A DNA stretch of 64,000 bases from Escherichia coli (GCF_050320075.1 NZ_CP190018.1), one strand, 5' to 3'; shown: positions 19,805-38,989, numbered from the stretch's first letter. Notes: generated by a model from the letters alone, not told the origin. Numbers and translations: made by a program.

Positions 19805-19908
19805 GGTGAACAGTGGTGAACAGACGGTGAACAGTCATTACTGCGATTGTTCACCCTTTAACTTACTGTATTACTTATCTTTTTTCTTATGGTGAACAGA
19901 GGTGAACA
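19805..19908. other. ori-like iteron cluster: six copies of the TGTTCACC octamer (either strand) in about 105 bp
   Basis: GGTGAACA at 19805, 19815, 19826, 19891, 19901 and TGTTCACC at 19849; about 5 kb from the crr-like repeats. Confidence 0.65.
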
Positions 19909-19987
19909 GTAAAATATAAAAAAACAAACAGTAAGCCGGTTTTTCCTGCGACCTTTTCCTGGCTTGCCGGTCTGAGGATGAGTCTCC

Positions 19988-20005
19988 TGTGTCAGGACTG
20001 GCACA
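19988..20005 (+). promoter_or_regulatory. Candidate Ogr/Delta activator site (TGT-N12-ACA) of a P2/P4-type late promoter upstream of sid
   Basis: TGTgtcaggactggcACA centred about 80 bp upstream of the sid ATG. Confidence 0.5.
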
Positions 20006-20077
20006 TCTGCAATGCGTCGTGTTGTTGTCCGGTGTACGTCACAATTTTCTTAACCTGAAGTGACGAGGAGCCGGAAA

Positions 20078-20812: not shown

Positions 20813-21054
20813 TGCGCTGCCCTTTCTGTCGTCATTCAGCGCATACCCGCACCAGCCGGTATGTGAGTGACAATGTCAAAGAAAGTTATCTGCAGTGCCA
20901 GAATATTTACTGTTCGGCGACATTTAAAACGCATGAGTCAATTTGTGCCGTGATTCGTTCTCCGGTCACGGAGGAAAAACCAGCACCGGCAAGCACAGCA
21001 CCGGCTGTTGTCCGAAAAGTTAAAGGCTGTTACAGCTCACCATTCAACCATTAA
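20809..21054 (+). CDS. Ogr/Delta-family zinc-finger late-gene transcription activator (81 aa, single domain)
   Basis: C-X2-C-X22-C-X4-C pattern (CPFC ... CQNIYC); start overlaps the sid stop (ATGA). Confidence 0.75.
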   Translation: MMRCPFCRHSAHTRTSRYVSDNVKESYLQCQNIYCSATFKTHESICAVIRSPVTEEKPAPASTAPAVVRKVKGCYSSPFNH

Positions 21055-21068
21055 TCAGGAGACGGGGT

Positions 21069-21641
21069 GTGACCACAATGTCATTACAGCAGGCTTTTGA
21101 GGTCTGCCAGAATAACAAAGCGGCATGGCTGCAACGCAAAAATGAGCTGGCTGCAGCCGAACAGGAATATCTGCGGCTTCTGTCCGGGGAAGGCAGAAAC
21201 GTCAGCCGCCTGGACGAATTACGCAATATTATCGAAGTCAGAAAATGGCAGGTGAATCAGGCCGCCGGTCGTTATATTCGTTCGCATGAAGCCGTTCAGC
21301 ACATCAGCATCCGCGAGCGGCTGAATGATTTTATGCAGCAGCACGGCACAGCACTGGCGGCCGCACTGGCACCGGAGCTGATGGGCTACAGTGAGCTGAC
21401 GGCCATTGCCCGAAACTGTGCCATACAGCGTGCCACAGATGCCCTGCGTGAAGCCCTTCTGTCCTGGCTTGCGAAGGGGGAAAAAATTAATTATTCCGCG
21501 CAGGATAGCGACATTTTAACGACCATCGGATTCAGGCCTGACGCGGCTTCGGTGGATGACAACCGTGAAAAATTCACCCCTGCGCAGAACATGATTTTTT
21601 CGCGTAAAAGTGCGCAACTGGCATCACGTCAGTCTGTGTAA
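21069..21641 (+). CDS. psu: Psu-like protein (polarity suppression / capsid decoration), 190 aa
   Basis: 190 aa as for P4 Psu; sequence (QQAFEVCQNNKAAWLQRKNELAAAEQEYLRLLSGEGRNVSRLDELRN) matches my recollection of Psu; last gene of the sid-delta-psu block. Confidence 0.75.
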   Translation: MTTMSLQQAFEVCQNNKAAWLQRKNELAAAEQEYLRLLSGEGRNVSRLDELRNIIEVRKWQVNQAAGRYIRSHEAVQHISIRERLNDFMQQHGTALAAALAPELMGYSELTAIARNCAIQRATDALREALLSWLAKGEKINYSAQDSDILTTIGFRPDAASVDDNREKFTPAQNMIFSRKSAQLASRQSV

Positions 21642-21805
21642 AATTCCCCGAAAATCCGCCCGTTTTTACTGAAAAAAGCCATGCATCGATAAGGTGCATG
21701 GCTTTGCATGCGTTTTCCTGCCTCATTTTCTGCAGACCGCGCCATTCCCGGCGCGGTCTGAGCGTGTCAGTGCAACTGCATTAAAACCGCCCCGCAAAGC
21801 GGGCG

Positions 21806-21824
21806 GGCGAGGCGGGGAAAGCAC
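21806..21824. other. P2/P4-type cos site (19-nt cohesive-end sequence GGCGAGGCGGGGAAAGCAC)
   Basis: Exact match to the P2-type cohesive end as recalled, immediately downstream of psu and preceded by GC-rich hairpins. Confidence 0.7.
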
Positions 21825-21842
21825 TGCGCGCTAGGAACGAAA

Positions 21843-24563: not shown

Positions 24564-24575
24564 TGTATATACCTC

Positions 24576-25739
24576 TCAATATAATTTATCTGAATACCAT
24601 TGCATCATTTTTTTTCTATGTTCAAGATATTGAGCATGATTGTAAGTCCCTCGGATTCTGTTTTTATCAACATGTGCCAATTGTATTTCAATCCATGCGC
24701 TATCAAACCCTTGTTCGTGCAATATTGTCGACATGGTATGCCGAAAACCGTGACCTGTAGCACGGCCTTTGTAGCCAATTAACTCAATCACTTGTGAAAC
24801 ACTTTCTTTTGAGATTGGCTTGCTGCGGTTGTTCCTGCCAATAAAGATGTAAGGGTAATGGCCGGTAATAGGTTTGAGCTGTTTGAAAAGGTCAACTACC
24901 TGAGTAGATAAAGGAACAATGTGAGGTCTACGCATTTTCATACGTTCCGCTGGTATCTCCCATATACCTTTTTCGAGGTCTACTTCTTCCCACGTAGCAA
25001 AGCGCATCTCCTGCGTTCTTACACCAGTCAGCATGACTATCTTCGTAGCATTTTTGGTGATGATGCTACCGGTATACGCTTCAAGATCTCGAATAAAATG
25101 AGGCAACTCTTCAGCGGATAAAAATGGATGGTGTTTTTGCTTGGGAACGGCCAGAGCGATAGCTAAATCAGGTGCAGGATTGTACTCAGCACGGCCAGTT
25201 ATGATTGCATAGCGATAAACCTCACCGCATCTTTGACGCACCTTGCGTGTTTTCTCTAGTGCTCCACGTTTTTCGATTCGTCGTAATACTTCAAGCAGTT
25301 CTAATGGTTTGATTTCACTGATAGGACGTTTACCAATGAACGGGAAGACATCTTGCTCGAATGTCTTAATGATTTCTTCTCGATAGGCCACAGTCCAGCG
25401 GTCAGCTTTGTTGGTATGCCATTCTCGACATATTGCTTCGAAAGAATTTTCTGTTGATAGCTTTTGGGCGAGTCTTAAAGCTTTGCGTTCCTCTACCGGG
25501 TCAATGCCATTAGCAACCTGCTTACGGGCGATATCACGCTTCTCACGTGCTTCTGCGAGGCTTACTAAATCGTAGCTGCCAAATGACATTAACCGCGCTT
25601 TCCCTGCAAACCGGAAACGGAAACGCCAGCCTTTCGAGCCATCGGGATTGATAAGCAATGACAGACCTTGTCCATCGTTCAATGTGTATGGCTTGTCTTG
25701 TGGTTTTGCACGTTTGATCTGTATATCGGTGAGAGCCAT
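24576..25739 (-). CDS. int: P4-family tyrosine integrase (387 aa)
   Basis: N-terminal MALTDIQIKRAKP...GKARLMSFGSYDLVSLAEAREKR and C-terminal catalytic region (HGFRHTMSTILHEQG ... RGTYNH); adjacent to the tRNA target. Confidence 0.9.
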   Translation of the reverse strand: MALTDIQIKRAKPQDKPYTLNDGQGLSLLINPDGSKGWRFRFRFAGKARLMSFGSYDLVSLAEAREKRDIARKQVANGIDPVEERKALRLAQKLSTENSFEAICREWHTNKADRWTVAYREEIIKTFEQDVFPFIGKRPISEIKPLELLEVLRRIEKRGALEKTRKVRQRCGEVYRYAIITGRAEYNPAPDLAIALAVPKQKHHPFLSAEELPHFIRDLEAYTGSIITKNATKIVMLTGVRTQEMRFATWEEVDLEKGIWEIPAERMKMRRPHIVPLSTQVVDLFKQLKPITGHYPYIFIGRNNRSKPISKESVSQVIELIGYKGRATGHGFRHTMSTILHEQGFDSAWIEIQLAHVDKNRIRGTYNHAQYLEHRKKMMQWYSDKLY

Positions 25740-25901
25740 GTGTATAACTGAAAACTACTTATAAAAAATCTATACACATTACTATACATATTTTTCGCGG
25801 ATTTAGGGAGACGATCTCGGACTGTTACGGATAAGATGATTATTCATCATATTGAATATAAAGGGTTTTATGGATCATCTCGGAACTGGCTGGATGAAGT
25901 T

Positions 25902-25996
25902 TGGCGGAAGATCACAGGAGTCGAACCTGCCCGGGACCGCTGGCGGCCCCAACTGGATTTGAAGTCCAGCCGCCTCACCGGAGACGACGATCTTCC
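25902..25996 (-). tRNA. selC: tRNA-Sec (selenocysteine tRNA), intact, 95 nt
   Basis: Reverse complement matches my recollection of E. coli selC from GGAAGATCGTCGTCTCC... to ...GATCTTCCGCCA. Confidence 0.95.
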
Positions 25997-27680: not shown

Positions 27681-29999
27681 ATGAAAATTAGCGACGGAAA
27701 CTGGTTGATTCAACCTGGCCTCAATTTGATTCACCCGCTTCAGGTGTTCGAGGTTGAACAGCAGGGTAATGAAATGGTGGTCTATGCTGCCCCTCGTGAT
27801 GTGCGTGAACGTACCTGGCAGCTTGATACGCCTTTATTTACGCTGCGCTTTTTCTCCCCACAGGAAGGTATTGTCGGTGTACGGATTGAGCATTTTCAGG
27901 GGGCGCTGAATAACGGTCCTCATTACCCGCTCAATATTTTGCAGGACGTGAAGGTCACAATCGAAAACACAGAACGTTACGCTGAGTTTAAAAGTGGCAA
28001 CTTAAGTGCGCGTGTCAGCAAAGGTGAGTTCTGGTCACTGGATTTTCTGCGTAACGGCGAACGTATTACCGGTAGTCAGGTGAAAAATAATGGCTACGTG
28101 CAGGACACGAATAATCAACGAAATTATATGTTTGAGCGGCTGGATCTTGGCGTTGGCGAAACAGTTTACGGTCTGGGAGAGCGCTTTACTGCGCTGGTGC
28201 GCAATGGCCAGACGGTAGAGACCTGGAACCGGGACGGCGGCACAAGTACTGAACAGGCGTATAAAAATATCCCGTTCTATATGACTAACCGTGGCTATGG
28301 GGTACTGGTCAATCATCCTCAATGCGTCTCTTTTGAAGTGGGATCGGAGAAAGTCTCCAAAGTGCAGTTCAGCGTTGAGAGTGAATATCTCGAATACTTT
28401 GTTATCGACGGCCCGACGCCGAAAGCGGTACTTGATCGTTATACCCGTTTTACTGGTCGTCCGGCGCTGCCGCCCGCGTGGTCCTTCGGCCTGTGGCTAA
28501 CCACTTCATTTACCACCAACTACGACGAAGCGACGGTAAACAGTTTTATCGATGGTATGGCGGAACGCAATCTGCCACTGCATGTTTTCCACTTTGACTG
28601 TTTCTGGATGAAAGCCTTCCAGTGGTGCGATTTTGAGTGGGACCCGCTGACTTTCCCGGACCCGGAAGGGATGATCCGCCGCCTGAAAGCGAAAGGGCTA
28701 AAAATCTGCGTCTGGATTAACCCCTATATCGGGCAAAAATCCCCTGTCTTTAAAGAGTTACAAGAGAAAGGCTATTTACTCAAACGCCCGGACGGTTCGT
28801 TATGGCAGTGGGATAAATGGCAGCCAGGTCTGGCGATTTATGACTTTACCAATCCGGATGCCTGCAAATGGTACGCCGACAAACTGAAAGGTCTGGTCGC
28901 GATGGGCGTTGATTGCTTTAAGACCGACTTTGGCGAACGTATTCCAACCGATGTTCAGTGGTTTGACGGTTCCGATCCGCAGAAAATGCATAACCATTAT
29001 GCGTACATCTACAACGAACTGGTGTGGAAAGTGCTCAAGGAAACCGTTGGCGAGGAAGAAGCCGTCTTGTTTGCTCGCTCGGCCTCCGTTGGTGCGCAGA
29101 AATTCCCGGTACACTGGGGTGGTGACTGTTACGCTAACTACGAATCAATGGCGGAAAGCCTGCGCGGTGGTTTGTCTATTGGCCTTTCAGGTTTTGGTTT
29201 CTGGAGCCACGATATCGGCGGCTTTGAGAATACCGCGCCGGCGCACGTTTACAAACGCTGGTGCGCGTTTGGTTTGCTCTCCAGCCATAGCCGTTTACAC
29301 GGCAGCAAATCTTATCGTGTGCCGTGGGCCTACGATGATGAGTCCTGTGATGTGGTGCGCTTCTTCACGCAACTGAAATGCCGCATGATGCCGTATCTGT
29401 ATCGTGAAGCTGCTCGTGCGAACGCGCGGGGTACGCCGATGATGCGGGCCATGATGATGGAGTTTCCGGACGATCCGGCTTGTGATTACCTTGACCGTCA
29501 ATACATGTTAGGCGACAACGTGATGGTTGCGCCTGTGTTCACTGAATCGGGCGATGTGCAGTTCTACTTGCCTGAAGGTCGCTGGACACACCTGTGGCAC
29601 AACGATGAACTCGATGGTAGTCGCTGGCATAAACAGCAGCACAGCTTCCTGAGTCTGCCCGTTTATGTGCGTGATAACACCCTACTGGCGCTGGGCAACA
29701 ACGAGCAACGTCCCGATTACGCGTGGCACGAAGGCACGGCATTCCAGCTCTTTAATCTACAAGACGGGCATGAAGCCATCTGTGAAGTGCCCGCTGCTGA
29801 CGGTTCCGTTCTTTTCACCCTGAAAGCGGCGCGTACTGGCAACACGATTACTGTGACTGGTGCGGGCGAGGCGAAGAACTGGACACTGTGCTTGCGCAAT
29901 ATTGTGAAAGTAAATGGTCTGCAAGGCGGTTCGCAGGCTGAAAGTGAGCAGGGACTGGTGGTGACTCCTCAAGGGAATGCGCTGACAATTACGTTGTAA
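27681..29999 (+). CDS. yicI: Family 31 glycoside hydrolase, alpha-xylosidase
   Basis: 772 aa; GH31 catalytic region (WINPY ... KTDFGERIP ... HWGGD). Confidence 0.9.
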
Positions 30000-30044: not shown

Positions 30045-30293
30045 TAAATAATCTCACATCTGGTAATAAATATTTCTTCCATCGTATTTGCGAGCATGAT
30101 CACGATTATTCATCACGAAAATGTGATCTGTGCCGAAAAATATCTATTAACCGCCCCGTTTTGTTTTATACATGTCCGGACTACGGACAGATTTTAGTAT
30201 TGTTGTGAAATTATTCTGCTTTATATTTACCCTCAGAGATGGCAACTGAAGCTCTTCCACATGGGGCTTCTTAATCTGTGATAAGGGTAAAAA

Positions 30294-31847
30294 ATGCAAA
30301 TGATTACCTCGCGACAAAACAGATTATTACGATTCCTTTTACCACGAAGGGAATATACGACTATTGTTACGATTGCCGGCTATTTAAATGTTTCGGAAAA
30401 AACCATTCAACGTGATTTACGTTTACTTGAGCAATGGCTGGAACAATGGCGAATAACCGTTGAGAAGCGTGCTGGCGCGGGTGTGATGTTAGACTCGAAG
30501 AATATTACTGATTTGCTGCATCTTGATCATTTGTTGGGAGCAGAATGTGAAGAGATTGATGGTGTAATGAATAATGCCAGGCGCGTTAAAATAGCGTCGC
30601 AGTTATTAAGTGAAACACCGAATGAAACGTCGATCAGTAAATTGTCAGAGCGCTATTTTATCAGTGGAGCCTCTATTGTTAATGACCTGAGAGTGATTGA
30701 GTCCTGGCTTGCGCCGTTGGGGTTATCATTGATCCGCAGCCCAAGTGGTACGCATATTGAAGGTAGTGAAGGGCAAGTCCGACAGGCAATGGCATTACTG
30801 ATTAACGGCATTATTAACCATAATGAGCCGCAAGGTGTCGTGTATTCACGTCTGGATCCCGGAAGTTATAAAGCATTAGTCCATTATTTTGGAGAAGAAG
30901 AGGTGTTATTTGTCCAGTCATTGTTACTGGATATGGAAAATGAATTAAGTTGGTCTTTGGGAGAGCCTTATTACGTTAACATTTTTACTCACATCCTTAT
31001 TATGATGTATCGCAACACGCACGGGAATGCGTTATCCAGAGAAGAAGATCAAACCAGGCAATATGATGAAAATATCTTTAATGTTGCCAGTCAGATGATT
31101 CATAAGATAGAACAACGAATTGCACATACATTGCCCGATGATGAAGTCTGGTTTATTTATCAATATATCATTTCATCAGGTGTGGCGATTGATGGACAAA
31201 AAGATGTGAGCATTATTTCACATATGCAGGCCAGCAATGAAGCGCGTCTGATTACCTGGCGTTTAATTACGGTATTCAGTGACATCGTGGACTGCGATTT
31301 TAGTGAAGACAGCGCATTATATGATGGCTTGTTGGTTCATATTAAGCCGCTGATTAACCGACTAAATTATCGCATTCATATCCGTAATCCATTGCTGGAA
31401 GATATTAAAGCAGAATTAGCGGATGTCTGGCGGTTGACGCAATATGTGGTGAATCAGGTATTTAAAACCTGGGGTGAGAATGCAGTGAGCGAGGATGAAG
31501 TAGGTTACCTGACCGTTCATTTTCAGGCTGCGATGGAGCGGCAAATTGCCCGTAAACGTGTATTACTGGTCTGTTCAACCGGAATCGGAACTTCGCATCT
31601 ACTGAAAAGCCGTATTCTGCGAGCATTTCCTGAATGGACGATTGTTGATGTTATTTCAGCAGCGAATTTATCACAGGTTTTGCCTGACAATATCGAACTG
31701 ATTATTTCGACCATTAATTTGCCTACAGTCACTATGCCGGTCGCTTATGTTACCGCTTTTTTTAATGATGCCGATATTAAGCGGGTCACTGAAATGGTGA
31801 TTACGGAAAAATTACATCATGCGACATCTCGGGTCGTTGAAATTTAA
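30294..31847 (+). CDS. PRD-domain transcriptional regulator (BglG/LicR/MtlR-like: N-terminal HTH, PRD region, C-terminal EIIB-like domain)
   Basis: 517 aa; HTH (TIVTIAGYLNVSEKTIQRDLRLLEQ) and C-terminal KRVLLVCSTGIGTSHLL EIIB-like motif. Confidence 0.75.
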   Translation: MQMITSRQNRLLRFLLPRREYTTIVTIAGYLNVSEKTIQRDLRLLEQWLEQWRITVEKRAGAGVMLDSKNITDLLHLDHLLGAECEEIDGVMNNARRVKIASQLLSETPNETSISKLSERYFISGASIVNDLRVIESWLAPLGLSLIRSPSGTHIEGSEGQVRQAMALLINGIINHNEPQGVVYSRLDPGSYKALVHYFGEEEVLFVQSLLLDMENELSWSLGEPYYVNIFTHILIMMYRNTHGNALSREEDQTRQYDENIFNVASQMIHKIEQRIAHTLPDDEVWFIYQYIISSGVAIDGQKDVSIISHMQASNEARLITWRLITVFSDIVDCDFSEDSALYDGLLVHIKPLINRLNYRIHIRNPLLEDIKAELADVWRLTQYVVNQVFKTWGENAVSEDEVGYLTVHFQAAMERQIARKRVLLVCSTGIGTSHLLKSRILRAFPEWTIVDVISAANLSQVLPDNIELIISTINLPTVTMPVAYVTAFFNDADIKRVTEMVITEKLHHATSRVVEI

Positions 31848-31873
31848 TGTCAGAATTTTATGAGGTATGACGA

Positions 31874-32344
31874 ATGGACATAACAAAAATCCTGAATACG
31901 AATCGCGTTATTTTAGATATGCAAGCGACGAATAAAGCGGAGGCGATTGAAGAATTAACTAATCTTCTCAAAAAAGATGGTGCGATCGATTGTCGGGAAA
32001 CCTTTATTAAAGATGTCTGGCAGCGCGAAGCGGAAGGCTCGACTGGTTTTGAAAATCATATTGCGATCCCGCATGGTAAATCTTCTGCGGTAATTAATAC
32101 CACGCTGGCTATCGGGCGTACCCGGCAGGATATTCCCTGGGAAACACTGGATGGCAGTAGCGTACGCTGTATTATTTTATTTGCGGTACGTCTTGAAGAT
32201 CAAAATACCACTCATATCCGTTTACTTTCCCAGGTCGCGGGCGCGCTTGCAGATGATGACATCATAGCGCAATTGCTGGTTGAGACGAGCCCGCAAAAAA
32301 TCATTGATCTCTTTAGTCAGTATGCACAATCCGATGTCTACTAA
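31874..32344 (+). CDS. PTS EIIA component, fructose/mannitol (EIIA-2) family
   Basis: 156 aa; conserved HIAIPHGK histidine motif. Confidence 0.8.
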   Translation: MDITKILNTNRVILDMQATNKAEAIEELTNLLKKDGAIDCRETFIKDVWQREAEGSTGFENHIAIPHGKSSAVINTTLAIGRTRQDIPWETLDGSSVRCIILFAVRLEDQNTTHIRLLSQVAGALADDDIIAQLLVETSPQKIIDLFSQYAQSDVY

Positions 32345-32361
32345 ATAACAGGGAGTATATC

Positions 32362-32676
32362 ATGAATATTGTCTGTGTTGCCGCCTGCACGGCGGGTATT
32401 GCTCACACCTATATTGCTCGTGAAAAGTTAATTAAAGGGGCAAAAGCACTGGGCCACACCATTAAAGTTGAAACCCAGGGAACCATTGGTACAGAAAACG
32501 AATTACAGGCGGCAGAGATCTCTGCTGCTGACGTCGTGATTCTTGCTGTGGATGTGAAAATAAAAGGAGAAGAACGTTTTACCAATAAACGCATTGTGCG
32601 AGTAAAGACAGAGATCGTCATTAAATCGCCCGTTCAATTTCTTGAAAAGGTCGAAAAATCACTGGGAAATAAATGA
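32362..32676 (+). CDS. PTS EIIB component, fructose type
   Basis: 104 aa; active-site cysteine context VAACTAGIAHTYIA. Confidence 0.8.
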   Translation: MNIVCVAACTAGIAHTYIAREKLIKGAKALGHTIKVETQGTIGTENELQAAEISAADVVILAVDVKIKGEERFTNKRIVRVKTEIVIKSPVQFLEKVEKSLGNK

Positions 32677-32700
32677 TCCTTATACTGGAGGGATCTTAAT

Positions 32701-33792
32701 ATGAAAGAAAATAAAATTCCGGTTTCACAGGAAATTAAAAAACATTTATTAACCGGCATCTCGTGGATGATACCCCTTATTGTGGCCGCCGGGATATGTA
32801 TTGCGTTGGGGCAAGTTCTTGGCGGTACAGATGTTGGTGAAAAAACAGGAACAATCCCGTGGATGCTTAATCAGATTGGCGGCTGGGGAATGGGGCTGAT
32901 TGTGCCGCTGATTAGCGCGGCAATTGCCTATTCTATTGCCGATCGTCCCGGATTTGCCCCGGGCCTGATTGTCGGCTTTCTCTGTGGGCAAATCCATACC
33001 GGATTTATTGGCGGTATGTTGGGTGGTTTCCTGGTGGGCTACACCATTTTGCTACTTAAACGCTATATTCGCCTGCCGCAGTCGATGCAAGGACTCATGC
33101 CAATCATGGTGTTACCGGTATTGAGCACCATTATTGGTGGTCTGTTAATGATGACGCTGATTGGTAAACCCATCGCCTGGTTACAAGAAGCACTGATTCA
33201 TTTGCTCGAGTCGATGCAGGGCGGATCGCGCTTCCTGATGGGGGCCATACTTGGCGCGATGGCAACCTTCGATTTCGGTGGTCCGGTCAACAAAACCATG
33301 TCGCTGTTTTCCGATGGCTTGCTGGTCAGTGGCGTCTACGGACCAGAAGCCGTGAAATTTGTCGGCTCAATCATCCCTCCGTTTGGCATCACACTTTCGT
33401 TCTTACTGACACGCCATAAATACACCCGTGCGGAGCGCGAGGCGCTGAAAGCCGCGTTTCCGATGGGGATCTGCATGATCACTGAAGGAGTCATTCCGAT
33501 CGCCGCGCGTGACCTGTTGCGAGTAGTGGGATCTTGTGTGGTGGCATCGGCGGTCGCGGGCGGCTTAATCATGGTGTGGGGCGTGGAGAGTCCGGTTCCA
33601 CATGGCGGCATGTTTGTTGTGCCTCTGTTCACCCATCCTCTGCTGTTTTGCCTGGCGCTGGGTATAGGCACGGTGATTTGTGGCGTGATGCTTTCACTCT
33701 GGAAGAAACCGGTAACGGAACGCGACGAAGAGTTTGACGAACTGAGCGATCAAAAGCTGAAAGATGAAGAGATCACTTTCACCCTCGAATAA
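32701..33792 (+). CDS. PTS EIIC permease, fructose-like family
   Basis: 363 aa polytopic membrane protein directly after EIIA/EIIB. Confidence 0.8.
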   Translation: MKENKIPVSQEIKKHLLTGISWMIPLIVAAGICIALGQVLGGTDVGEKTGTIPWMLNQIGGWGMGLIVPLISAAIAYSIADRPGFAPGLIVGFLCGQIHTGFIGGMLGGFLVGYTILLLKRYIRLPQSMQGLMPIMVLPVLSTIIGGLLMMTLIGKPIAWLQEALIHLLESMQGGSRFLMGAILGAMATFDFGGPVNKTMSLFSDGLLVSGVYGPEAVKFVGSIIPPFGITLSFLLTRHKYTRAEREALKAAFPMGICMITEGVIPIAARDLLRVVGSCVVASAVAGGLIMVWGVESPVPHGGMFVVPLFTHPLLFCLALGIGTVICGVMLSLWKKPVTERDEEFDELSDQKLKDEEITFTLE

Positions 33793-33803
33793 CCGGAGGC
33801 CCT

Positions 33804-34655
33804 ATGTTTGCCGATATGAAAAGTATGGTGATGAAAGCCTGGCATGAACATTACGCCTTGCTGGCGATCAACTGTATGAATCTGGAAAGTGCTCACGCAG
33901 CTATCCGCGTGGCGGAGAAGAATCGCGCTCCGATCATTCTCAATCTCTATCAGGGGCATCTGGCGCATTTTCCTGCACCCGTCGCGGCGGCAGTGGTTAA
34001 AACGCTCGCGGAATCTGCCTCAGTACCGGTCGCTCTGGCGCTTGATCATGGCAAAAATCCGGACTGTATTCGTCAGGCGTTTCGTGCTGGTTTCAGCGGA
34101 TTAATGATTGATGCTTCTGCTTTTCCCCTGGAGGAAAACGTGCGCCAGACCAGGGCGGTGGTGGAACTCGCCGCCAGCGCGCAGCTCTGCGTGGAAGGCG
34201 AACTGGGCCATCTGGCAGATGCGCCGCGTTACGACCAGGCCGCCAATGCAGACCTGATGACGCAACCCACTGATGTGGAACCGTTTATCGCGCAGACAGG
34301 CATTGATCTACTGGCCGTCTCGGTAGGCACGGCGCACGGCATGTACGCGCCTGGTGTTGTACCTGCTATTGATTTTCAGCGTCTGGCGGAGATTTTCCAC
34401 TGCTCGAGCGTGCCTCTGGCATTACATGGCGGTAGCGGTACGCCGTTCGATCAGCTCCAGCTCTGTACGACGCTGGGGGTAGCAAAAATCAACGTGGGGG
34501 CGGCCATTTTTGAACGGGGGAAATCCGCGCTCCTGCATACCCTCTGTCACGATATATCCATTGAACTGGTGGACGCGCTGAAAGCTATGGAACTGGCCTT
34601 CGAAGAAGCGATTACACCGTATTTACAGGCGAGCGGCTCTATAGGCAAAGCCTGA
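33804..34655 (+). CDS. Class II (metal-dependent) ketose-bisphosphate aldolase family protein, paralogue 1
   Basis: 283 aa; LALDHGK and LHGGSG blocks typical of FbaA/GatY/KbaY-type aldolases. Confidence 0.75.
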   Translation: MFADMKSMVMKAWHEHYALLAINCMNLESAHAAIRVAEKNRAPIILNLYQGHLAHFPAPVAAAVVKTLAESASVPVALALDHGKNPDCIRQAFRAGFSGLMIDASAFPLEENVRQTRAVVELAASAQLCVEGELGHLADAPRYDQAANADLMTQPTDVEPFIAQTGIDLLAVSVGTAHGMYAPGVVPAIDFQRLAEIFHCSSVPLALHGGSGTPFDQLQLCTTLGVAKINVGAAIFERGKSALLHTLCHDISIELVDALKAMELAFEEAITPYLQASGSIGKA

Positions 34656-34735
34656 TTCATTTTCTGTCATGGCCTTTATGCCAGTGCAATAACGCACCGG
34701 CAGGGCGGACTACACGCTGAAACTGGAGATTTAAC

Positions 34736-35596
34736 ATGTTAGTTTCGATGAAAGAATTACTGCAACCTACCCGCCAGCACGGCTTTGCCATTGGCGCATT
34801 TAATGTGGCGGATAACTGTTTCCTTCGCGCAGTCGTGGATGAAGCAGAAGCGACAAATACTCCGACGATTATTGCCATCCATCCCAGCGAACATGATTTT
34901 GTGGGCGATGCCTTTTTCGCTCACGTTCGCGAAATTACCCAGCGTAGTCCGGTCCCGTTTGTACTGCACCTCGATCATGGTGCCTCTGTAGAGCATGTTT
35001 TGCGTGCGATTCGCTGCGGATTTACCTCAGTAATGATCGACGGTTCGCTGCTGCCGTATGAAGAAAACGTGGCGCTGACCGCAGAAGTGGTTCGCCTCGC
35101 TCACGCGGTTGGAGTGTCGGTTGAGGGTGAACTGGGAACCATCGGACAAACAGGAACGTCGGTAGAAGGTGGTGTTTCACAAGTGACCTACACAGATCCG
35201 GCGCAGGCCGCCGATTTTATTGCTCGTACAGGTGCCGACACACTGGCTGTGGCGATTGGTACAGCGCATGGCATCTATCCAAAAGGGATGCAGCCGAAGC
35301 TGCAAATGGACATTTTGCGCGACATTGCCGGGCGCATTGATATTCCATTGGTGTTGCACGGTGGTTCGGCAAATCCGGACGCGGAGATTGCTGAATCAGT
35401 TACGCTCGGCGTTGGCAAAATCAATATCTCCAGCGATATGAAATACGCCTATTTCCAGAAAGTGCGTGAAATTCTCGCCAAAGAGAGCTGGTGGGATCCG
35501 AACGTCATCTATCCGGATGCGATTAACGCGGCGCGGGAAGTCATTCGCCACAAAATGAAACTGTTCGGTTCGCTCGGTAAAGCATCACTGTACTAA
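34736..35596 (+). CDS. Class II (metal-dependent) ketose-bisphosphate aldolase family protein, paralogue 2
   Basis: 286 aa; LHLDHGAS, GELG, AIGTAHG, LVLHGGSA blocks. Confidence 0.8.
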   Translation: MLVSMKELLQPTRQHGFAIGAFNVADNCFLRAVVDEAEATNTPTIIAIHPSEHDFVGDAFFAHVREITQRSPVPFVLHLDHGASVEHVLRAIRCGFTSVMIDGSLLPYEENVALTAEVVRLAHAVGVSVEGELGTIGQTGTSVEGGVSQVTYTDPAQAADFIARTGADTLAVAIGTAHGIYPKGMQPKLQMDILRDIAGRIDIPLVLHGGSANPDAEIAESVTLGVGKINISSDMKYAYFQKVREILAKESWWDPNVIYPDAINAAREVIRHKMKLFGSLGKASLY

Positions 35597-35643
35597 GCCA
35601 GAAGGGCGGGATGACCCGCCTTTTACGCAACAAGGAACGAGAT

Positions 35644-36576
35644 ATGCACTATCTGGGGTTGGATATTGGTGGGACCAAAATCGCCGCCGTCGTCATGGAT
35701 GCGCATGGCTGGGAGATTCGCCGTTACCGCTGCCCGACGCAAAAGTCGACATATCAACAATTTGTCTCATGCGTTGTGGCGCTTATCGAGCAGATTAGGC
35801 GGGACGTTCAACGACCGATGCTGACAGGGGTCGCCTTACCCGGCAGTATCTCGCCACTCACTGGCCTGATTAAAAACGCGAATATTCAGGTGATTAACGG
35901 TCATGCGTTACAGGCTGATTTGCAGCAATTGCTTGGGCAACCGGTGGTGATAGCCAATGATGGTAACTGTTTCGCGCTATCAGAAGCTTGCGACGGTGCC
36001 GGGCAAGATTATGACGTAGTATTTGGTATTACGCTTGGTACAGGCTGCGGCGGTGGCATTGCCATCAAGCAACGACCGTTTATAGGGGCCTGGGGAAATG
36101 CTGCCGAATGCGGTCATATCACGTTGCCAGGCTATATGGAGCAGGAAGATGGTCCATCAGTCAGTTGCTATTGCGGCAAACACAACTGCGTGGAGTCGTT
36201 TGTTTCCGGCAGCGGTTTTAGTGAACGCTATCAACAGATGACTGGTAACTTGCTCACTCCTGCGGCGATTGTCACCCTGGCACAACGTGGTGATGCTTGT
36301 GCCATGCAGCAGGTGGCACGTTTTCGCCAACAGCTTGCCCGCACGCTGGCAACCATCGTTAACGTTGTTGACCCTGGCGTGATTGTCATCGGCGGCGGGC
36401 TTTCGAATGTGGAACTGCTTATCACCGATCTGAACGCAGAAGTCGCTCCACTGGTTTTCACCGATCAATTCACCACTCCCATTGTAAAAGCACAGCACGG
36501 CGACAGTAGCGGAATGCGTGGCGCTGCCTGGCTTGCTATGCGCAACGGAGAAGCCAATGAAACGTTCACAAATTAA
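35644..36576 (+). CDS. ROK-family sugar kinase
   Basis: LGLDIGGTKIA N-terminal ATP motif and ROK zinc motif CYCGKHNCVESFVSG. Start placed at MHYLGLDIGG; the ORF track starts 11 codons earlier at 35611. Confidence 0.75.
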   Translation: MHYLGLDIGGTKIAAVVMDAHGWEIRRYRCPTQKSTYQQFVSCVVALIEQIRRDVQRPMLTGVALPGSISPLTGLIKNANIQVINGHALQADLQQLLGQPVVIANDGNCFALSEACDGAGQDYDVVFGITLGTGCGGGIAIKQRPFIGAWGNAAECGHITLPGYMEQEDGPSVSCYCGKHNCVESFVSGSGFSERYQQMTGNLLTPAAIVTLAQRGDACAMQQVARFRQQLARTLATIVNVVDPGVIVIGGGLSNVELLITDLNAEVAPLVFTDQFTTPIVKAQHGDSSGMRGAAWLAMRNGEANETFTN

Positions 36577-37237
36577 TTATGTTATTGATAAAGCACATGC
36601 CATTGCGCAGACCTTCCGCGTTTGTTTGCCAGAGTTCGCCTATTTTACGGTGGATGACTGGCTGCAGCGGGAACGGGATAACTGGCAAGAAGTGGTCGAC
36701 TTACAGCTCGGTTGGGATATCACCGATTTTGGTCGTGGTGATTTCAACCAAACGGGACTAACACTGCTAACGATGCGCAACGGCGCGCTGGGGGCGGCGG
36801 CATATCCAAAACCGTATGCTGAGAAAATGTTGCAGATCCAACAAGATCAGCAGACTCCCTGGCATTTTCACACCCACAAAATGGAAGATATCCTCAATCG
36901 GGGCGGTGGAGACTTATGCATGCAGTTGGCCTGGGCCAACGAAGCCAATCTCTGTGATGATCAGCGGGTTATTACCGTGAGTGTTGATGGTCAGCGGCGT
37001 GCCGTGAAACCTGGTGAAACGCTGGTGCTAAAGCCGGGGCAGGGCATTTGCCTGCCGCCGCGTCTGTATCATCGCTTCTGGGCGGAAAAAGCGTTTGTTC
37101 TCGGCTGGGAAATTTCGATGGTAAATGATGACCAACATGATAACCATTTTCTTGAGCCGGGAGGACGTTTTCCGGCGATAGAAGAAGATGAACCGGTGAA
37201 ATGGTTATTGTGTAGTGAGTATGCTGTTTTGCGGTAA
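36557..37237 (+). CDS. Cupin-type sugar isomerase-like protein (D-lyxose/mannose ketol-isomerase-like), tentative
   Basis: About 226 aa from MKRSQINYV; His-rich WHFHTHKMEDI metal-site-like motif. Start overlaps the ROK kinase 3' end by 20 nt. Family call is tentative. Confidence 0.45.
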   Translation: MKRSQINYVIDKAHAIAQTFRVCLPEFAYFTVDDWLQRERDNWQEVVDLQLGWDITDFGRGDFNQTGLTLLTMRNGALGAAAYPKPYAEKMLQIQQDQQTPWHFHTHKMEDILNRGGGDLCMQLAWANEANLCDDQRVITVSVDGQRRAVKPGETLVLKPGQGICLPPRLYHRFWAEKAFVLGWEISMVNDDQHDNHFLEPGGRFPAIEEDEPVKWLLCSEYAVLR

Positions 37238-37279
37238 TAGCGGGGACGCTAACGTTGATATCCGTTAGCGCCCGCGTAT

Positions 37280-38989
37280 TTACTGCACCGGCTCCGTCGA
37301 TGTAACTTCGCCACTGGAAACGACGCCTGCATTCATGGTTTGAGTCACTTGCTGCTTTGTGGCGTTCACGGCATGCAATTGCCCGCTAACCGTAGGTTTC
37401 AGCGGGATATTGGCCTGAATATCGCCGCTGGCGGTAAGCTGAATATTGCCGTCGCCAGTCAACGGTAATTCAGGCCATCCCCACTGTTGCAAAATATTCA
37501 CCGGCACACCGCGTCCATTCAGGCTGATATGGGTCTGACGTTGTGGCGTTTGTGAAACACTGGCGGTGGCTTCCAGAATGCCTTTTTCAGTAAATGCACT
37601 CAGTTCGCTGATATTCACCGTGCTGCTGTTGGCGGTCAGCGCCAGCGATGGGCGACGAACATCAACACGATTAAATGTCGCGGCGGCGGCATTCAGATTC
37701 GCCGAACCACTCCAGACGCCCCATTTATGATCGGTAACCAGCGTCAGGTTGGCACCGTAACCATCGAGCGCGGTGAGCTGCCACGGGAAGTCAGGGTCGA
37801 TATCAATGATCAGATTGCGGCTGGCGCTAAATCTCTTCAGTTGCAGGCTGTTTAACCAACCGGGTGTTGTTTCCATCCACAACTGTTGCCAGTTTTTTGG
37901 CAAGGTATATTCCAGTCCGGCAATTGCCGCATCATCGAGGATCAGCGTTTTCCCGTCGCGTTGCCAGTTTCCTGACGTTCTGACCATACCCCCTTCCCAG
38001 CGGCTGGTGAACTGGCGCAGCGCTACGCCCTGCGGGGAAAATTCCGCGTTTATAATCGGGTCAAATAAATGCAGCGAACCATAAATGAACTCGCTGGCGT
38101 TCATCGACAGTTTGCCTTCCTGTGTCTGCCAGCCATCTTTACTGAAGGTCATGTTGCGCAAGCTGAGATCGAGGTCGGTCACCGCCCAGTCCGGACCTTG
38201 CAAACGAGCATCGATCACTTCCAGGCGACCAATCTGCAACGACGGGACAGAGCGTAATGGCGCAAAGAAGTCGGTTAGCGATTTTTCGCTTTGTAGACGG
38301 ATATCCGCCATGCGCAGATTTTCCACTTGCCAGCTGCCGTCGGCGTTACGCTGCGCGTTTCCGGTTAATGTCCCGCGGGCGATGTCGGCACCCAGGTTAG
38401 TCAGCGTAACGCGATCGTTATCAATACTGCCTTCAATCAGTACATTGGTGGCAGGAACATCATTGAGCGAAAGCGATCCGGCACTAAACTGAATCTGCGC
38501 CTTCGTACCCAGCACTTTACCGGCTTCTGGTGACCACGGAACCACGCCGCCATTTACCCGCTGCGCGCTCAGTTTCCATTCGCTATTCGGGCTATTAAAC
38601 GCCATATCACGCAGTTGCAGACGATCGGCTTTGAACGGTAGCGGCGCGGTCTGGTCGGTGAGATTCAGCGTCCCGTTTTCCAGCAGGATGGTATCGACAT
38701 GGCGTGGTTCGGTCAGTTGCCGACTGCTTAGCGCAATGTCGACACTTTTTGCCACCAGGGTCGCGGGCTGGCCATCACGGCCGAACGTGACGTTCTCCAG
38801 CACGATATGAGATGGCGCGGAAAAACGGTGATCCATCGCCCCGAAGGCCAGATGATAGTCGCTATTCTCGGAAACCCATGCGCTGATATGTTCTGCTCCC
38901 CAGCGGGTTTGCAGAAGAAAATAGAGGCCAGCGATCACCACTAACAGAGCGATGAAAATGTAGAGAAGCAGCTTCCCAATAAATTTCAT
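37280..38989 (-). CDS. yicH: AsmA-family protein YicH
   Basis: 569 aa from MKFIGKLLLYIFIALLVVIAGLYFL (N-terminal membrane anchor); conserved position next to xanP. Confidence 0.85.
   Translation of the reverse strand: MKFIGKLLLYIFIALLVVIAGLYFLLQTRWGAEHISAWVSENSDYHLAFGAMDHRFSAPSHIVLENVTFGRDGQPATLVAKSVDIALSSRQLTEPRHVDTILLENGTLNLTDQTAPLPFKADRLQLRDMAFNSPNSEWKLSAQRVNGGVVPWSPEAGKVLGTKAQIQFSAGSLSLNDVPATNVLIEGSIDNDRVTLTNLGADIARGTLTGNAQRNADGSWQVENLRMADIRLQSEKSLTDFFAPLRSVPSLQIGRLEVIDARLQGPDWAVTDLDLSLRNMTFSKDGWQTQEGKLSMNASEFIYGSLHLFDPIINAEFSPQGVALRQFTSRWEGGMVRTSGNWQRDGKTLILDDAAIAGLEYTLPKNWQQLWMETTPGWLNSLQLKRFSASRNLIIDIDPDFPWQLTALDGYGANLTLVTDHKWGVWSGSANLNAAAATFNRVDVRRPSLALTANSSTVNISELSAFTEKGILEATASVSQTPQRQTHISLNGRGVPVNILQQWGWPELPLTGDGNIQLTASGDIQANIPLKPTVSGQLHAVNATKQQVTQTMNAGVVSSGEVTSTEPVQ

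What the first reader, a model, noticed from the sequence alone, without database searches (positions are those of the whole stretch)
30294..37237. Strain-variable PTS/aldolase catabolic island between yicI and yicH
K-12 has yicI directly next to yicH as I recall. Here eight genes are inserted: a PRD-containing regulator, fructose-family EIIA/EIIB/EIIC, two class II aldolase paralogues, a ROK kinase and a cupin isomerase-like protein. The enzyme set (ketose-bisphosphate aldolase, kinase, isomerase) suggests uptake and catabolism of an uncommon ketose or sugar derivative whose identity is not evident from sequence.
Basis: partly seen in the sequence, partly recalled or inferred. Interest (0 to 1): 0.55.

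Follow-up and report, generated by a model that had tools for sequence, protein, structure and literature searches.

The report
Known frz PTS-aldolase operon
This eight-gene block between yicI and yicH is the already published "frz" sugar-uptake and sugar-splitting operon, carried by about 30% of complete E. coli genomes (including classic extraintestinal pathogens) and absent from K-12; the sugar it handles has not been identified in anything I could read.

Summary
Eight co-directional genes (30294-37237) lie between yicI and yicH. K-12 MG1655 has only a 52-bp spacer there. All eight family assignments hold: a PRD regulator, fructose-family EIIA/EIIB/EIIC, two class II aldolase paralogues, a ROK kinase and a D-lyxose/D-mannose-type cupin isomerase.

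It is not new. It is the frz operon of extraintestinal and avian pathogenic E. coli (Rouquet et al. 2009). The published frz PCR primers match the window exactly and give the published 843-bp amplicon. The 7,230-bp block matches the 7,227-bp frz region reported between yicH and yicI in strain BEN2908. The block is present in 1601 of 5426 complete genomes, including UTI89, JJ1886, NC101 and Nissle 1917.

- "Inserted" is probably the wrong polarity. The same cluster sits at the same yicI|yicH junction in Phytobacter, Superficieibacter, Mangrovibacter and Klebsiella aerogenes, and it diverges like its flanks. One E. coli genome carries a deletion scar.
- The conserved core is regulator + PTS + both aldolases. 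It is also found in Erwinia, Pantoea and Aerococcus, and Listeria lmo2133-2138 is a published homologue. The kinase and isomerase are dispensable add-ons.

No substrate is named in any paper I could search. Verdict: already known, low-to-moderate interest.

The parts
30047..37276 (+). Whole strain-variable block (frz operon with its promoter region and terminator), 7,230 bp
   Evidence: Borders come from alignment to the K-12-type empty site. The size matches the 7,227-bp frz region between yicH and yicI in BEN2908. The block is present in 1601 of 5426 genomes.
30089..30104 (+). CRP-like box TGCGA-N6-TCACG, conserved across genera
   Evidence: Invariant columns TTTG.GA.C....TCAC in a 10-sequence, 6-genus alignment of the upstream region. 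Binding was not tested.
30122..30128 (+). Invariant TGTGATC box
   Evidence: Invariant in alignment A3. Function is not known.
30173..30189 (+). Conserved palindrome TGTCCGGA-N-CGGACA just upstream of the putative -35; candidate activator (FrzR) operator
   Evidence: Nearly invariant across genera. The two variants (Buttiauxella, Izhakiella) break pairs without compensation, which favours a DNA-binding site over an RNA hairpin. The consensus scan flags it as terminator-like.
30200..30227 (+). Putative sigma-70 promoter (TTGTTG, 16 nt, TATATT)
   Evidence: Read directly from the sequence. The -10 columns are conserved. It was not called by the stricter scan, so this is an inference.
30294..31847 (+). 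frz ORF1: PRD-containing transcriptional activator (HTH_11/Mga, PRD1, PRD2, EIIB-Gat-like domain), 517 aa
   Evidence: Pfam domains. H233, H349 and C427 are invariant from E. coli to Aerococcus. The published frz primers match at 30699-30718 and 31522-31541.
31874..32344 (+). ORF2: fructose-family EIIA (156 aa; His67 in the AIPH motif)
   Evidence: TIGR00848 scores 126.9 bits, above its cutoff. Residue position.
32362..32676 (+). ORF3: fructose-family EIIB (104 aa; Cys9 in the CTAGIAHT motif)
   Evidence: TIGR00829 scores 99.4 bits, above its cutoff. Residue position.
32701..33792 (+). ORF4: fructose-family EIIC (363 aa), the most conserved protein of the cluster
   Evidence: TIGR01427 scores 311.5 bits, above its cutoff. 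It is 90-97% identical in other Enterobacteriaceae genera, and dN/dS is 0.00-0.016.
33804..34655 (+). ORF5 (ald1): divergent class II aldolase paralogue, 283 aa
   Evidence: PF01116 family, but below every NCBIfam cutoff. It keeps Asp81 and the predicted Zn ligands His82, His178 and His208, plus Asn230. The GG-x-ED catalytic loop is replaced by the invariant motif ELGH[IL]ADAPxY, and NVxT is replaced by NVGAA, in 92 orthologues.
34736..35596 (+). ORF6 (ald2): class II ketose-bisphosphate aldolase family, 286 aa
   Evidence: NF006042 scores 524.5 bits, above its 405-bit cutoff. It keeps Asp80, His81, His178, His208 and Asn230, and has the loop GQTGTSVEGG. It is 33% identical to ald1.
35644..36576 (+). 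ORF7: ROK sugar kinase (310 aa; no HTH domain), closest to Mak fructo/mannokinase
   Evidence: NF007108 scores 318 bits, below its 443-bit cutoff. It has the DIGGT motif and the zinc motif CYCGKHNCVE. It is missing or truncated in Superficieibacter, Buttiauxella warmboldiae, Izhakiella, Erwinia and Pantoea.
36557..37237 (+). ORF8: cupin D-lyxose/D-mannose-type aldose-ketose isomerase (226 aa); it overlaps ORF7 by 20 bp
   Evidence: NF051472 scores 271 bits, below its 350-bit cutoff. It matches PDB 3kmh (Z5688 D-lyxose isomerase) at E = 6e-65, and His103, His105, Glu110 and His172 align with residues that are conserved in Z5688. It is absent in Mangrovibacter, Erwinia and Pantoea.
37240..37275 (.). 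G+C-rich inverted repeat between the convergent ORF8 and yicH (likely bidirectional terminator)
   Evidence: Read directly from the sequence: GCGGGGACGCTAACG...CGTTAGCGCCCGC. It is absent from the empty site.

Best explanation
The block is the frz operon of E. coli (identity is essentially certain). It is a self-contained, self-regulated phosphotransferase (PTS) pathway for a fructose-like sugar that has not been identified.

Inferred working model:
- A promoter upstream of ORF1 carries conserved CRP-like boxes and a conserved palindrome.
- This promoter is activated by ORF1, an MtlR/LicR-type PRD activator, not an RNA antiterminator.
- By analogy with MtlR, HPr phosphorylates the invariant PRD2 His349 and switches the activator on. 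When no substrate is being transported, the Frz EIIA/EIIB phosphorylate the invariant Cys427 (and/or His233) and switch it off.
- EIIA (His67), EIIB (Cys9) and EIIC import and phosphorylate the sugar, probably a ketose at C1 as FruA does.
- The paired class II aldolases then split the ketose phosphate into dihydroxyacetone phosphate plus an aldehyde or triose phosphate.
- In Enterobacteriaceae two accessory enzymes were added. The lyxose/mannose-type isomerase would convert the matching free aldose into the ketose. The Mak-like ROK kinase would phosphorylate free sugar, or add the second phosphate.

The locus is most likely an old Enterobacteriaceae locus at the yicI|yicH junction that the K-12-type lineages lost by deletion, rather than a recent gain by pathogens.

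My confidence by step: identity as frz 0.97; PTS uptake followed by aldol cleavage under FrzR control 0.7; ancestral locus with loss 0.65; kinase-independent ketose-1-phosphate cleavage 0.35.
For: Identity:
- The published frz primers match exactly and give an 843-bp amplicon.
- The position between yicH and yicI and the size agree with the BEN2908 frz region: 7,230 bp here against 7,227 bp.
- The block is 98.2% identical to UTI89 and JJ1886, 98.3% to NC101 and 98.0% to Nissle 1917.

Functional parts:
- All family assignments hold.
- The expected PTS phosphorylation-site motifs (AIPH with His67, CTAGIAHT with Cys9) are present, and His233, His349 and Cys427 of the regulator are invariant as far out as Aerococcus.
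- Both aldolases keep the residues that align with the AgaY zinc ligands and the catalytic Asp.
- Residues aligning with the four remembered metal ligands of the isomerase are conserved.
- Genes are tightly spaced or overlapping, and there is one terminal inverted repeat.
- dN/dS is 0.006-0.12 in most comparisons, so the genes are under purifying selection.
- Upstream motifs are conserved across genera.

Core and accessory genes:
- Regulator-IIA-IIB-IIC-ald1-ald2 is conserved in Erwinia, Pantoea and Aerococcus without the kinase or isomerase.
- The literature treats Listeria lmo2133-2138 as a homologue of the E. coli operon.

Ancestral locus:
- The cluster has the same order and the same yicJ-yicI | yicH-xanP junction in Superficieibacter, Phytobacter, Mangrovibacter and Klebsiella aerogenes.
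- Its proteins are 62-97% identical to the E. coli ones, against 69-94% for the flanking genes.
- Between the window and UTI89, the block is 95.9-99.4% identical per gene and the flanks are 95.1-98.1%.
- Strain HS-02 keeps only the first 515 bp of the block, fused to yicH.
- There is no integrase, tRNA gene or direct repeat at the borders.

Published phenotypes: fitness under oxygen restriction and in late stationary phase, growth in serum and the gut, and the ON state of type 1 fimbriae.
Against: - No substrate is named in any paper I could search. The original paper is not held in the library.
- ROK kinases are not known to phosphorylate ketose-1-phosphates. This is my own knowledge.
- ald1 lacks the canonical catalytic-loop Glu and a phosphate-binding Thr. 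Its chemistry may therefore differ, or it may be an auxiliary subunit. In Aerococcus it has lost one zinc ligand.
- The regulator lacks the C-terminal EIIA-like domain of MtlR.
- Against the ancestral-locus reading:
  - The first three genes have low G+C, 0.41-0.44.
  - The genome scan found no hit in representatives of other named Escherichia species, although that scan depends on exact peptide patterns.
  - Kosakonia sacchari, Izhakiella and the Erwiniaceae carry the cluster at other sites.
  - Salmonella serovar Ituri has it upstream of yicI, not between yicI and yicH. The cluster has therefore moved at some time.
Confidence: 0.8

Rival explanations
1. A genomic islet gained by horizontal transfer in pathogenic lineages.
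For: The block is absent from K-12, BL21, O157:H7 and about 70% of complete genomes. The first three genes have low G+C, 0.41-0.44. The cluster sits at unrelated sites in Kosakonia sacchari, Izhakiella and the Erwiniaceae, and on the other side of yicI in Salmonella Ituri. No hit was found in representatives of other named Escherichia species.
Against: The same junction is occupied in at least four other genera, and the cluster proteins diverge about as much as the flanking genes do. Divergence within E. coli equals that of the flanks. There is no integrase, att site or direct repeat. A deletion scar is seen in HS-02. All listed empty sites share one junction length, which fits a single old deletion.
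Confidence: 0.25
2. Mainly a sensory or regulatory PTS. Frz would report the presence of a sugar or the PTS phosphorylation state, and would act on other genes (for example the fim switch) rather than feeding carbon into glycolysis.
For: The published phenotypes are fitness under stress and the orientation of the type 1 fimbrial switch, not growth on a sugar. No substrate is named in the searchable literature.
Against: Four metabolic enzymes are co-transcribed and under purifying selection. Their predicted metal-binding residues are intact. From my recollection of the abstract of Rouquet et al. 2009, which I could not verify here, both the regulator and the metabolic enzymes were required for the phenotypes. 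The PTS-plus-two-aldolase core is conserved in non-pathogens and plant-associated bacteria that may lack the fim switch.
Confidence: 0.2
3. A specific, already known route: D-tagatose/galactitol-type (GatYZ or KbaYZ-like) catabolism, or D-mannose/D-lyxose utilisation.
For: Both aldolases score against tagatose-bisphosphate aldolase models and AgaY. The isomerase resembles the characterised D-lyxose/D-mannose isomerase Z5688. The kinase is closest to Mak.
Against: Every equivalog-level score is below its cutoff. There is no GatZ/KbaZ-type subunit and no PfkB-type kinase. The isomerase and kinase are missing from many orthologous clusters, so they cannot define the core substrate.
Confidence: 0.12
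4. A cryptic, decaying locus, like the silent frv/frw/fry PTS clusters of K-12.
For: No growth phenotype is named in the papers I could read. The ROK gene is truncated in Izhakiella. A partial deletion is seen in HS-02.
Against: All eight ORFs are intact in the window. dN/dS is far below 1. Active-site residues are invariant in 92 ald1 orthologues. Mutant phenotypes have been published.
Confidence: 0.03

Closest known systems
frz operon of avian ExPEC strain BEN2908 (Rouquet et al. 2009, J Bacteriol 191:4427)
   Same: Same locus between yicH and yicI, same eight-gene content and same size. Published frz primers match exactly.
   Different: This is an allelic variant, about 1.8% diverged from the copies in UTI89, JJ1886 and NC101. 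The left part of the window best matches strain Ec-U3 and is 97.4% identical to SMS-3-5.
Listeria monocytogenes lmo2133-lmo2138
   Same: Two class II aldolase paralogues, fructose-type EIIA/B/C and a regulator. The literature treats it as a homologue of the ExPEC operon. The same core is seen in Aerococcus.
   Different: No ROK kinase or isomerase is listed in the published annotation. I did not compare the Listeria sequences directly.
D-tagatose PTS pathway (tagKTH-gatYZ of Klebsiella oxytoca and Bacillus licheniformis) and the E. coli gat/aga pathways (GatYZ, KbaYZ); named from my own knowledge
   Same: A PTS followed by a two-protein class II ketose-bisphosphate aldolase step. AgaY is one of the two best solved-structure matches of ald1.
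   Different: The partner of the catalytic aldolase here is a second PF01116 paralogue, not a GatZ/KbaZ-type protein. There is no PfkB-type kinase. All equivalog scores are below cutoff.
MtlR/LicR/ManR class of PRD-containing transcriptional activators; named from my own knowledge
   Same: HTH/Mga domains, two PRDs and an EIIB-Gat-like domain, with an invariant PRD2 His and an invariant EIIB-like Cys.
   Different: It ends after the EIIB-like domain and has no C-terminal EIIA-like domain. RefSeq labels it 'BglG family transcription antiterminator', but Pfam reported no CAT RNA-binding domain.
E. coli O157:H7 Z5688 D-lyxose/D-mannose isomerase (PDB 3kmh)
   Same: Same cupin family, E = 6e-65 over the full length, and the residues aligned with its remembered metal ligands are conserved.
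   Different: A paralogue: it scores below the NCBIfam equivalog cutoff, 271 against 350 bits, and its genomic context differs.

Membership tests
frz operon (ExPEC/APEC) | Located between yicH and yicI | tested here: met
frz operon (ExPEC/APEC) | Amplified by the published frz primers with an 843-bp product | tested here: met
   Exact matches at 30699-30718 (+) and 31522-31541 (-), spanning 843 bp. No such matches occurred in the shuffled controls.
frz operon (ExPEC/APEC) | Eight genes: activator, three fructose-type PTS subunits, two class II ketose-bisphosphate aldolases, ROK kinase, cupin protein (list from my recollection of the original abstract) | tested here: met
   The region size is 7,230 bp here against 7,227 bp in BEN2908.
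frz operon (ExPEC/APEC) | Direct sequence identity to the BEN2908 copy | not tested
   I did not find the BEN2908 accession. As a proxy, the block is 98.0-98.3% identical to UTI89, JJ1886, NC101, Nissle 1917 and an APEC O2:K1:H5 strain.
PRD-containing transcriptional activator (MtlR/LicR type) | N-terminal HTH/Mga DNA-binding domains plus two PRDs | tested here: met
   HTH_11, Mga and two PRD domains.
PRD-containing transcriptional activator (MtlR/LicR type) | EIIB-Gat-like domain with a conserved Cys, and a conserved His in PRD2 | tested here: met
   A PTS_IIB domain at residues 422-498. Cys427 and His349 are invariant in nine orthologues, including Aerococcus.
PRD-containing transcriptional activator (MtlR/LicR type) | C-terminal EIIA(Mtl/Fru)-like domain | tested here: not met
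   The protein ends at residue 517 with no EIIA domain. It is a shorter variant of the class.
BglG/SacY RNA antiterminators (the RefSeq product name) | N-terminal CAT RNA-binding domain acting on a RAT/terminator leader | tested here: not met
   Pfam finds HTH/Mga domains and no CAT_RBD. The conserved upstream hairpin-like element shows no compensatory changes.
Fructose-family PTS Enzyme II | EIIA, EIIB and EIIC domain models above their curated cutoffs, with the phospho-acceptor His and Cys motifs | tested here: met
   TIGR00848, TIGR00829 and TIGR01427 all score above cutoff. His67 and Cys9 sit in the expected motifs. No equivalog model (FruA, MngA, Frv, Frw) reaches its cutoff, so the specificity is undefined.
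Class II (zinc) ketose-bisphosphate aldolase, PF01116 | Three His zinc ligands and the catalytic Asp (AgaY Asp82, His83, His180, His208) | tested here: met
   Both paralogues keep them. They are invariant in 92 ald1 orthologues.
Class II (zinc) ketose-bisphosphate aldolase, PF01116 | Mobile catalytic loop GG-x-E/D-D, and Thr in the NVxT phosphate site | tested here: not met
   ald1 has ELGHLADAPRYD and NVGAA instead. ald2 has GQTGTSVEGG and NISSD, a variant form. ald1 is therefore a distinct subfamily, and its activity is unknown.
ROK sugar kinase | DxGxT ATP motif, CxCGxxxCxE zinc motif, and no N-terminal HTH domain | tested here: met
   LDIGGTK at residue 6 and CYCGKHNCVE at residue 175, in a 310-aa protein. 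The Mak equivalog cutoff is not reached, 318 against 443 bits.
D-lyxose/D-mannose isomerase (cupin, PF07385) | His/His/Glu/His metal site as in Z5688 (ligand numbering from my own knowledge) | tested here: met
   His103, His105, Glu110 and His172 align with conserved residues of 3kmh. The equivalog cutoff is not reached, 271 against 350 bits.
Integrative genomic island | Integrase, tRNA or att target, flanking direct repeats | tested here: not met
   None is present at the borders. The only tRNA gene is selC, 4 kb upstream.

The most novel reading that the evidence does not exclude
The frz cluster would be an ancient Enterobacterales locus rather than a virulence islet gained by ExPEC. It would sit at yicI|yicH in Enterobacteriaceae and next to parC in Erwiniaceae, and be kept mainly by plant-associated genera and some E. 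coli lineages. Its six-gene core would be a complete, kinase-independent route: a fructose-type PTS makes a ketose 1-phosphate, which is cleaved directly by a pair of class II aldolases. One of the pair (ald1) would define an uncharacterised subfamily with a replaced catalytic loop (ELGH[IL]ADAPxY). If so, the substrate would be a plant- or diet-derived rare ketose, and the virulence association would be a by-product of lineage history.
Probability: 0.3. Interest if true: 0.45.

Novelty: already known. Interest (0 to 1): 0.22.

Why it matters
The locus is used routinely as an APEC/ExPEC virulence marker (frz, frzorf4), and published work links it to fitness in serum and the gut and to type 1 fimbriae. 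Yet none of the papers I could read names its sugar. This analysis offers three concrete leads:
- The kinase and isomerase are accessory genes. Substrate hunting should focus on what a fructose-type PTS plus two aldolases can process alone.
- ald1 is a conserved, atypical class II aldolase and is worth characterising biochemically.
- The association with pathogenic strains may reflect differential loss of an old locus rather than acquisition. This bears on how the marker should be interpreted.

For the genome scan itself, the finding is correct but not a discovery.

Tried and rejected
- The original frz paper (PMC2698472) is not held in the library. Details of it rest on secondary papers and on my memory.
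- Literature searches for a substrate or a newer name found nothing. Papers on the Listeria homologue give no substrate either.
- Neighbouring genes of distant homologues are unrelated and give no hint of the substrate. They include CoA-ligase and beta-oxidation genes in Mediterraneibacter, shikimate dehydrogenases in Aerococcus, mltB and zinc ABC transporter genes in Kosakonia, and parC in Erwinia and Pantoea.
- I considered ald1 to be a decayed, non-catalytic partner. For Enterobacterales this is unlikely, because its residues aligning with the zinc ligands and its replacement loop are invariant in 92 orthologues. It remains possible for Aerococcus, where His180 (AgaY numbering) is replaced by Arg.
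- I considered the hairpin at 30173-30189 to be a leader terminator under antitermination. I rejected this because the regulator has no RNA-binding domain and the stem variants are not compensated.
- I first assumed the whole window was strain CFSAN061763. That is wrong upstream of selC, where the window matches strain Ec-U3 instead.
- Scans for sigma-70 promoters and intrinsic terminators found no more sites than in shuffled sequence.

Full report
**1. Observation**

The window holds eight + strand ORFs between 30294 and 37237. They are flanked by yicI (27681-29999, +) and the convergent yicH (37280-38989, -). An identical copy in strain CFSAN061763 is annotated by RefSeq with the same eight genes. 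There the ROK gene starts at window position 35644 and the isomerase gene at 36557. The alignment to PDB 3kmh begins at that methionine, which supports the 36557 start.

In K-12 MG1655, yicH and yicI are 52 bp apart. Alignment of the filled and empty sites puts the borders at about 30047 and 37276, a block of 7,230 bp. A hairpin downstream of yicI is retained on the left. There are no direct repeats.

Among 5426 complete E. coli genomes, 1601-1602 carry the whole block. The listed genomes without it, including BL21-type, O157:H7 and O145 strains, show the K-12-type junction at one constant length.

**2. What the genes are**

- **ORF1** has HTH_11/Mga domains, two PRD domains and a PTS_IIB-like domain.
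- **ORF2-4** exceed the curated cutoffs of the fructose-family EIIA, EIIB and EIIC domain models. They do not reach any substrate-specific equivalog, whether FruA, MngA or the Frv/Frw-type models.
- **ORF5 and ORF6** are PF01116 class II aldolases, 33% identical to each other. ORF6 (ald2) fits the uncharacterised subfamily NF006042. ORF5 (ald1) is below every cutoff.
- **ORF7** is a ROK kinase with no HTH domain. It is closest to Mak fructo/mannokinase but below that cutoff.
- **ORF8** is a cupin of the D-lyxose/D-mannose isomerase family. It matches the solved Z5688 enzyme at E = 6e-65, and the residues aligned with its metal ligands are conserved.

**3. Identity: the frz operon**

A 2026 genome paper on avian ExPEC strain BEN2908 lists genomic region "GR 27, yicH..yicI, 7227 bp, frz operon". 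It cites Rouquet et al. 2009.

The frz primers printed in a veterinary typing paper (product 843 bp) match the window with no mismatches at 30699-30718 (+) and 31522-31541 (-). The span between them is exactly 843 bp.

The block is 98.0-98.3% identical to the copies in UTI89, JJ1886 (ST131), NC101, Nissle 1917 and an APEC O2:K1:H5 strain. The name frzorf4 is a routine APEC marker.

Secondary sources summarise the published phenotypes:
- better survival under oxygen restriction and in late stationary phase;
- growth in serum and in the gut;
- adhesion and invasion through the ON orientation of the type 1 fimbrial switch.

The original paper is not in the library. The finding is therefore already known.

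**4. Insertion or loss?**

A scan of one genome per species with ald1, followed by tblastn with all eight proteins and the flanking proteins, gave the following picture.

The same cluster, in the same order, lies at the same yicJ-yicI | yicH-xanP junction in:
- Superficieibacter (two species);
- Phytobacter (two species);
- a "Kosakonia sp." whose frz proteins show almost the same identities to E. coli as those of Phytobacter;
- Mangrovibacter (left flank only);
- an unnamed Escherichia species.

Klebsiella aerogenes also has it there, together with an extra GH4/PTS cassette. The Frz proteins are 62-97% identical to the E. coli ones. The flanking proteins are 69-94% identical.

Within E. coli, per-gene identity between the window and UTI89 is 95.9-99.4% for the block and 95.1-98.1% for the flanks. 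The dS values overlap.

Strain HS-02 keeps only the first 515 bp of the block, including a truncated regulator gene, fused to yicH. This is a deletion scar. No mobility gene or att site is present.

Together these points favour an old resident locus that was lost by deletion in the lineages leading to K-12, B and O157.

There is also evidence the other way:
- The cluster is at other sites in Kosakonia sacchari, Izhakiella and the Erwiniaceae. In the Erwiniaceae the location next to parC is itself conserved between Erwinia and Pantoea.
- In Salmonella serovar Ituri it lies upstream of yicI, not between yicI and yicH.
- The first three genes are A+T-rich.
- Representatives of other named Escherichia species gave no hit in a scan that depends on exact peptide patterns.

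I put the ancestral-locus reading at about 0.65.

**5. Core and accessory genes**

The six genes regulator-IIA-IIB-IIC-ald1-ald2 are present in every related locus from Enterobacteriaceae, Erwiniaceae and Aerococcus. The Mediterraneibacter locus (L022), which begins at a contig end, has only EIIA, EIIB, EIIC and a single ald1-like gene. A published comparison treats Listeria lmo2133-2138 as the homologue of the ExPEC operon.

The other two genes are variable:
- The ROK gene is absent in Superficieibacter and Buttiauxella warmboldiae, and truncated to 158 codons in Izhakiella.
- The isomerase gene is absent in Mangrovibacter.
- Both are absent in Erwinia and Pantoea.

Named ald1 orthologues come mostly from plant- or insect-associated Enterobacterales. 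They include Pantoea, Brenneria, Erwinia, Gibbsiella, Sodalis, Kosakonia and Phytobacter, plus some Klebsiella, Leclercia, Enterobacter and rare Salmonella. The substrate must be something that the PTS and the two aldolases can handle on their own.

**6. The aldolase pair**

Both paralogues keep the residues that align with the AgaY catalytic Asp, the three zinc-ligand histidines and Asn230.

ald2 has a variant catalytic loop, GQTGTSVEGG.

ald1 replaces the canonical GG-x-ED loop with ELGH[IL]ADAPxY, and replaces NVxT with NVGAA. These replacements are invariant or nearly so in 92 Enterobacterales orthologues. dN/dS against Phytobacter is 0.06.

ald1 is thus a conserved, distinct subfamily and not a decaying copy. 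It could catalyse a different stereochemistry or act as an auxiliary partner, but which of these cannot be decided here. In Aerococcus it has lost one zinc ligand.

**7. Regulation (inferred)**

ORF1 has the architecture of the MtlR/LicR/ManR activators, minus their C-terminal EIIA-like domain. It has no CAT RNA-binding domain, so the RefSeq label "BglG family transcription antiterminator" is misleading.

His233 (PRD1), His349 (PRD2) and Cys427 (EIIB-like domain) are invariant from E. coli to Aerococcus. By analogy with Bacillus subtilis MtlR (from my own knowledge: His342 and Cys419), His349 would be the activating HPr site and Cys427 the inhibitory site that the cognate EIIA/B charges when no substrate is being transported.

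A phylogenetic footprint of the upstream region across six genera shows four conserved elements:
- a CRP-like box at 30089-30104;
- an invariant TGTGATC at 30122-30128;
- a palindrome TGTCCGGA-N-CGGACA at 30173-30189, next to a plausible -35;
- a -10-like TATATT at 30222-30227.

The palindrome's rare variants break pairing without compensation. This favours a protein-binding site over an RNA hairpin.

**8. Working model and its limits**

*Shown here:* the identity of the locus, its gene families, conserved active-site residues, purifying selection, the core/accessory structure, conserved synteny and conserved upstream motifs.

*Inferred:* a fructose-type PTS phosphorylates a ketose, probably at C1. 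The aldolase pair cleaves it, either directly as a 1-phosphate or after a second phosphorylation, to dihydroxyacetone phosphate plus an aldehyde or triose phosphate. In Enterobacteriaceae the isomerase converts the matching free aldose (2,3-cis configuration as in lyxose, mannose or talose; my own knowledge of this enzyme family). The ROK kinase phosphorylates free sugar or supplies the second phosphate.

The substrate is unknown. I found no paper that names it.

The main functional rival is that Frz acts chiefly as a sensor feeding into regulation. This would fit the published phenotypes, but it fits less well with four conserved enzymes.

**9. Verdict**

However, the feature is a published and widely typed operon. 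Its novelty class is "already known", and interest is low to moderate.

The residual value lies in three things: the unsolved substrate, the atypical ald1 subfamily, and the likely reversal of the "acquired islet" view.

**10. Other features of the window**

Upstream of selC the window is not colinear with CFSAN061763. It matches strain Ec-U3 at 99.9% and SMS-3-5 at 97.4%.

It carries a P4-like satellite prophage attached to tRNA-Sec, with a 906-aa SIR2-family cargo gene. It also carries an eilA/T3SS-translocon/iatC block between yicS and the window start. CFSAN061763 shows nepI beyond iatC, and in K-12 yicS and nepI are adjacent.

Noticed in passing
window 15140-25996: A P4-like satellite prophage is integrated at tRNA-Sec (selC, 25902-25996). 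It carries an alpha primase-helicase, epsilon/derepression and Icd-like genes, sid, delta, psu and an integrase. Positions 18600-19590 are 94.4% identical to phage P4.
   Followed up: partly
window 21843-24563 (-): A 906-aa SIR2-family protein lies between psu and the integrase of the P4-like element, the position where such satellites are known (my own knowledge) to carry anti-phage cargo. In PADLOC only its N-terminal ~200 residues match the ThsA SIR2 models (E = 4e-27). No ThsB gene is annotated next to it, so it is not a canonical Thoeris system.
   Followed up: partly
window 18924-19200 (-): Rfam hits to C4 antisense RNA, isrK and c4-a1b1. They fall in the immunity region of the P4-like element, so they are explained as its CI-type immunity RNA rather than free-standing sRNAs.
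   Followed up: yes
window 1-10163: A second strain-variable block holds the 3' part of iatC (inverse autotransporter), eilA (HilA-like regulator), and T3SS tip, translocon and chaperone genes. It lies between yicS and the window start. CFSAN061763 shows nepI beyond iatC, and in K-12 yicS and nepI are adjacent. In CFSAN061763 the translocon gene is interrupted by IS1.
   Followed up: partly
L046 4001-4525 (E. coli HS-02): A deletion scar at the frz locus. Only the first 515 bp of the block remain, including a truncated regulator pseudogene, directly followed by yicH. About five of the 1606 matching genomes have such partial forms.
   Followed up: partly
L051 13503-17671 (Klebsiella aerogenes): At the same yicI|yicH junction, K. 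aerogenes carries the frz cluster plus an extra cassette: an RpiR-type regulator, a GH4 glycosidase and a PTS EIICB. The junction therefore accumulates sugar-utilisation cassettes.
   Followed up: no
L050 6481-17868 (Salmonella enterica serovar Ituri): The full eight-gene frz cluster lies upstream of yicI, next to an autotransporter gene, rather than between yicI and yicH. The 2-kb gap where yicJ would be expected has no called gene.
   Followed up: no
L015 11844-12320 (Izhakiella australiensis): The ROK kinase gene of the cluster is truncated to 158 codons, keeping only the N-terminal half. This shows decay of an accessory gene.
   Followed up: partly
window 30294-31847: RefSeq names this gene 'BglG family transcription antiterminator'. 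The protein has HTH/Mga DNA-binding domains and no CAT RNA-binding domain, so the product name is misleading.
   Followed up: yes
window 61098-61136 (+): A JUMPstart RNA element (Rfam RF01707, 55 bits). I did not examine its surroundings.
   Followed up: no
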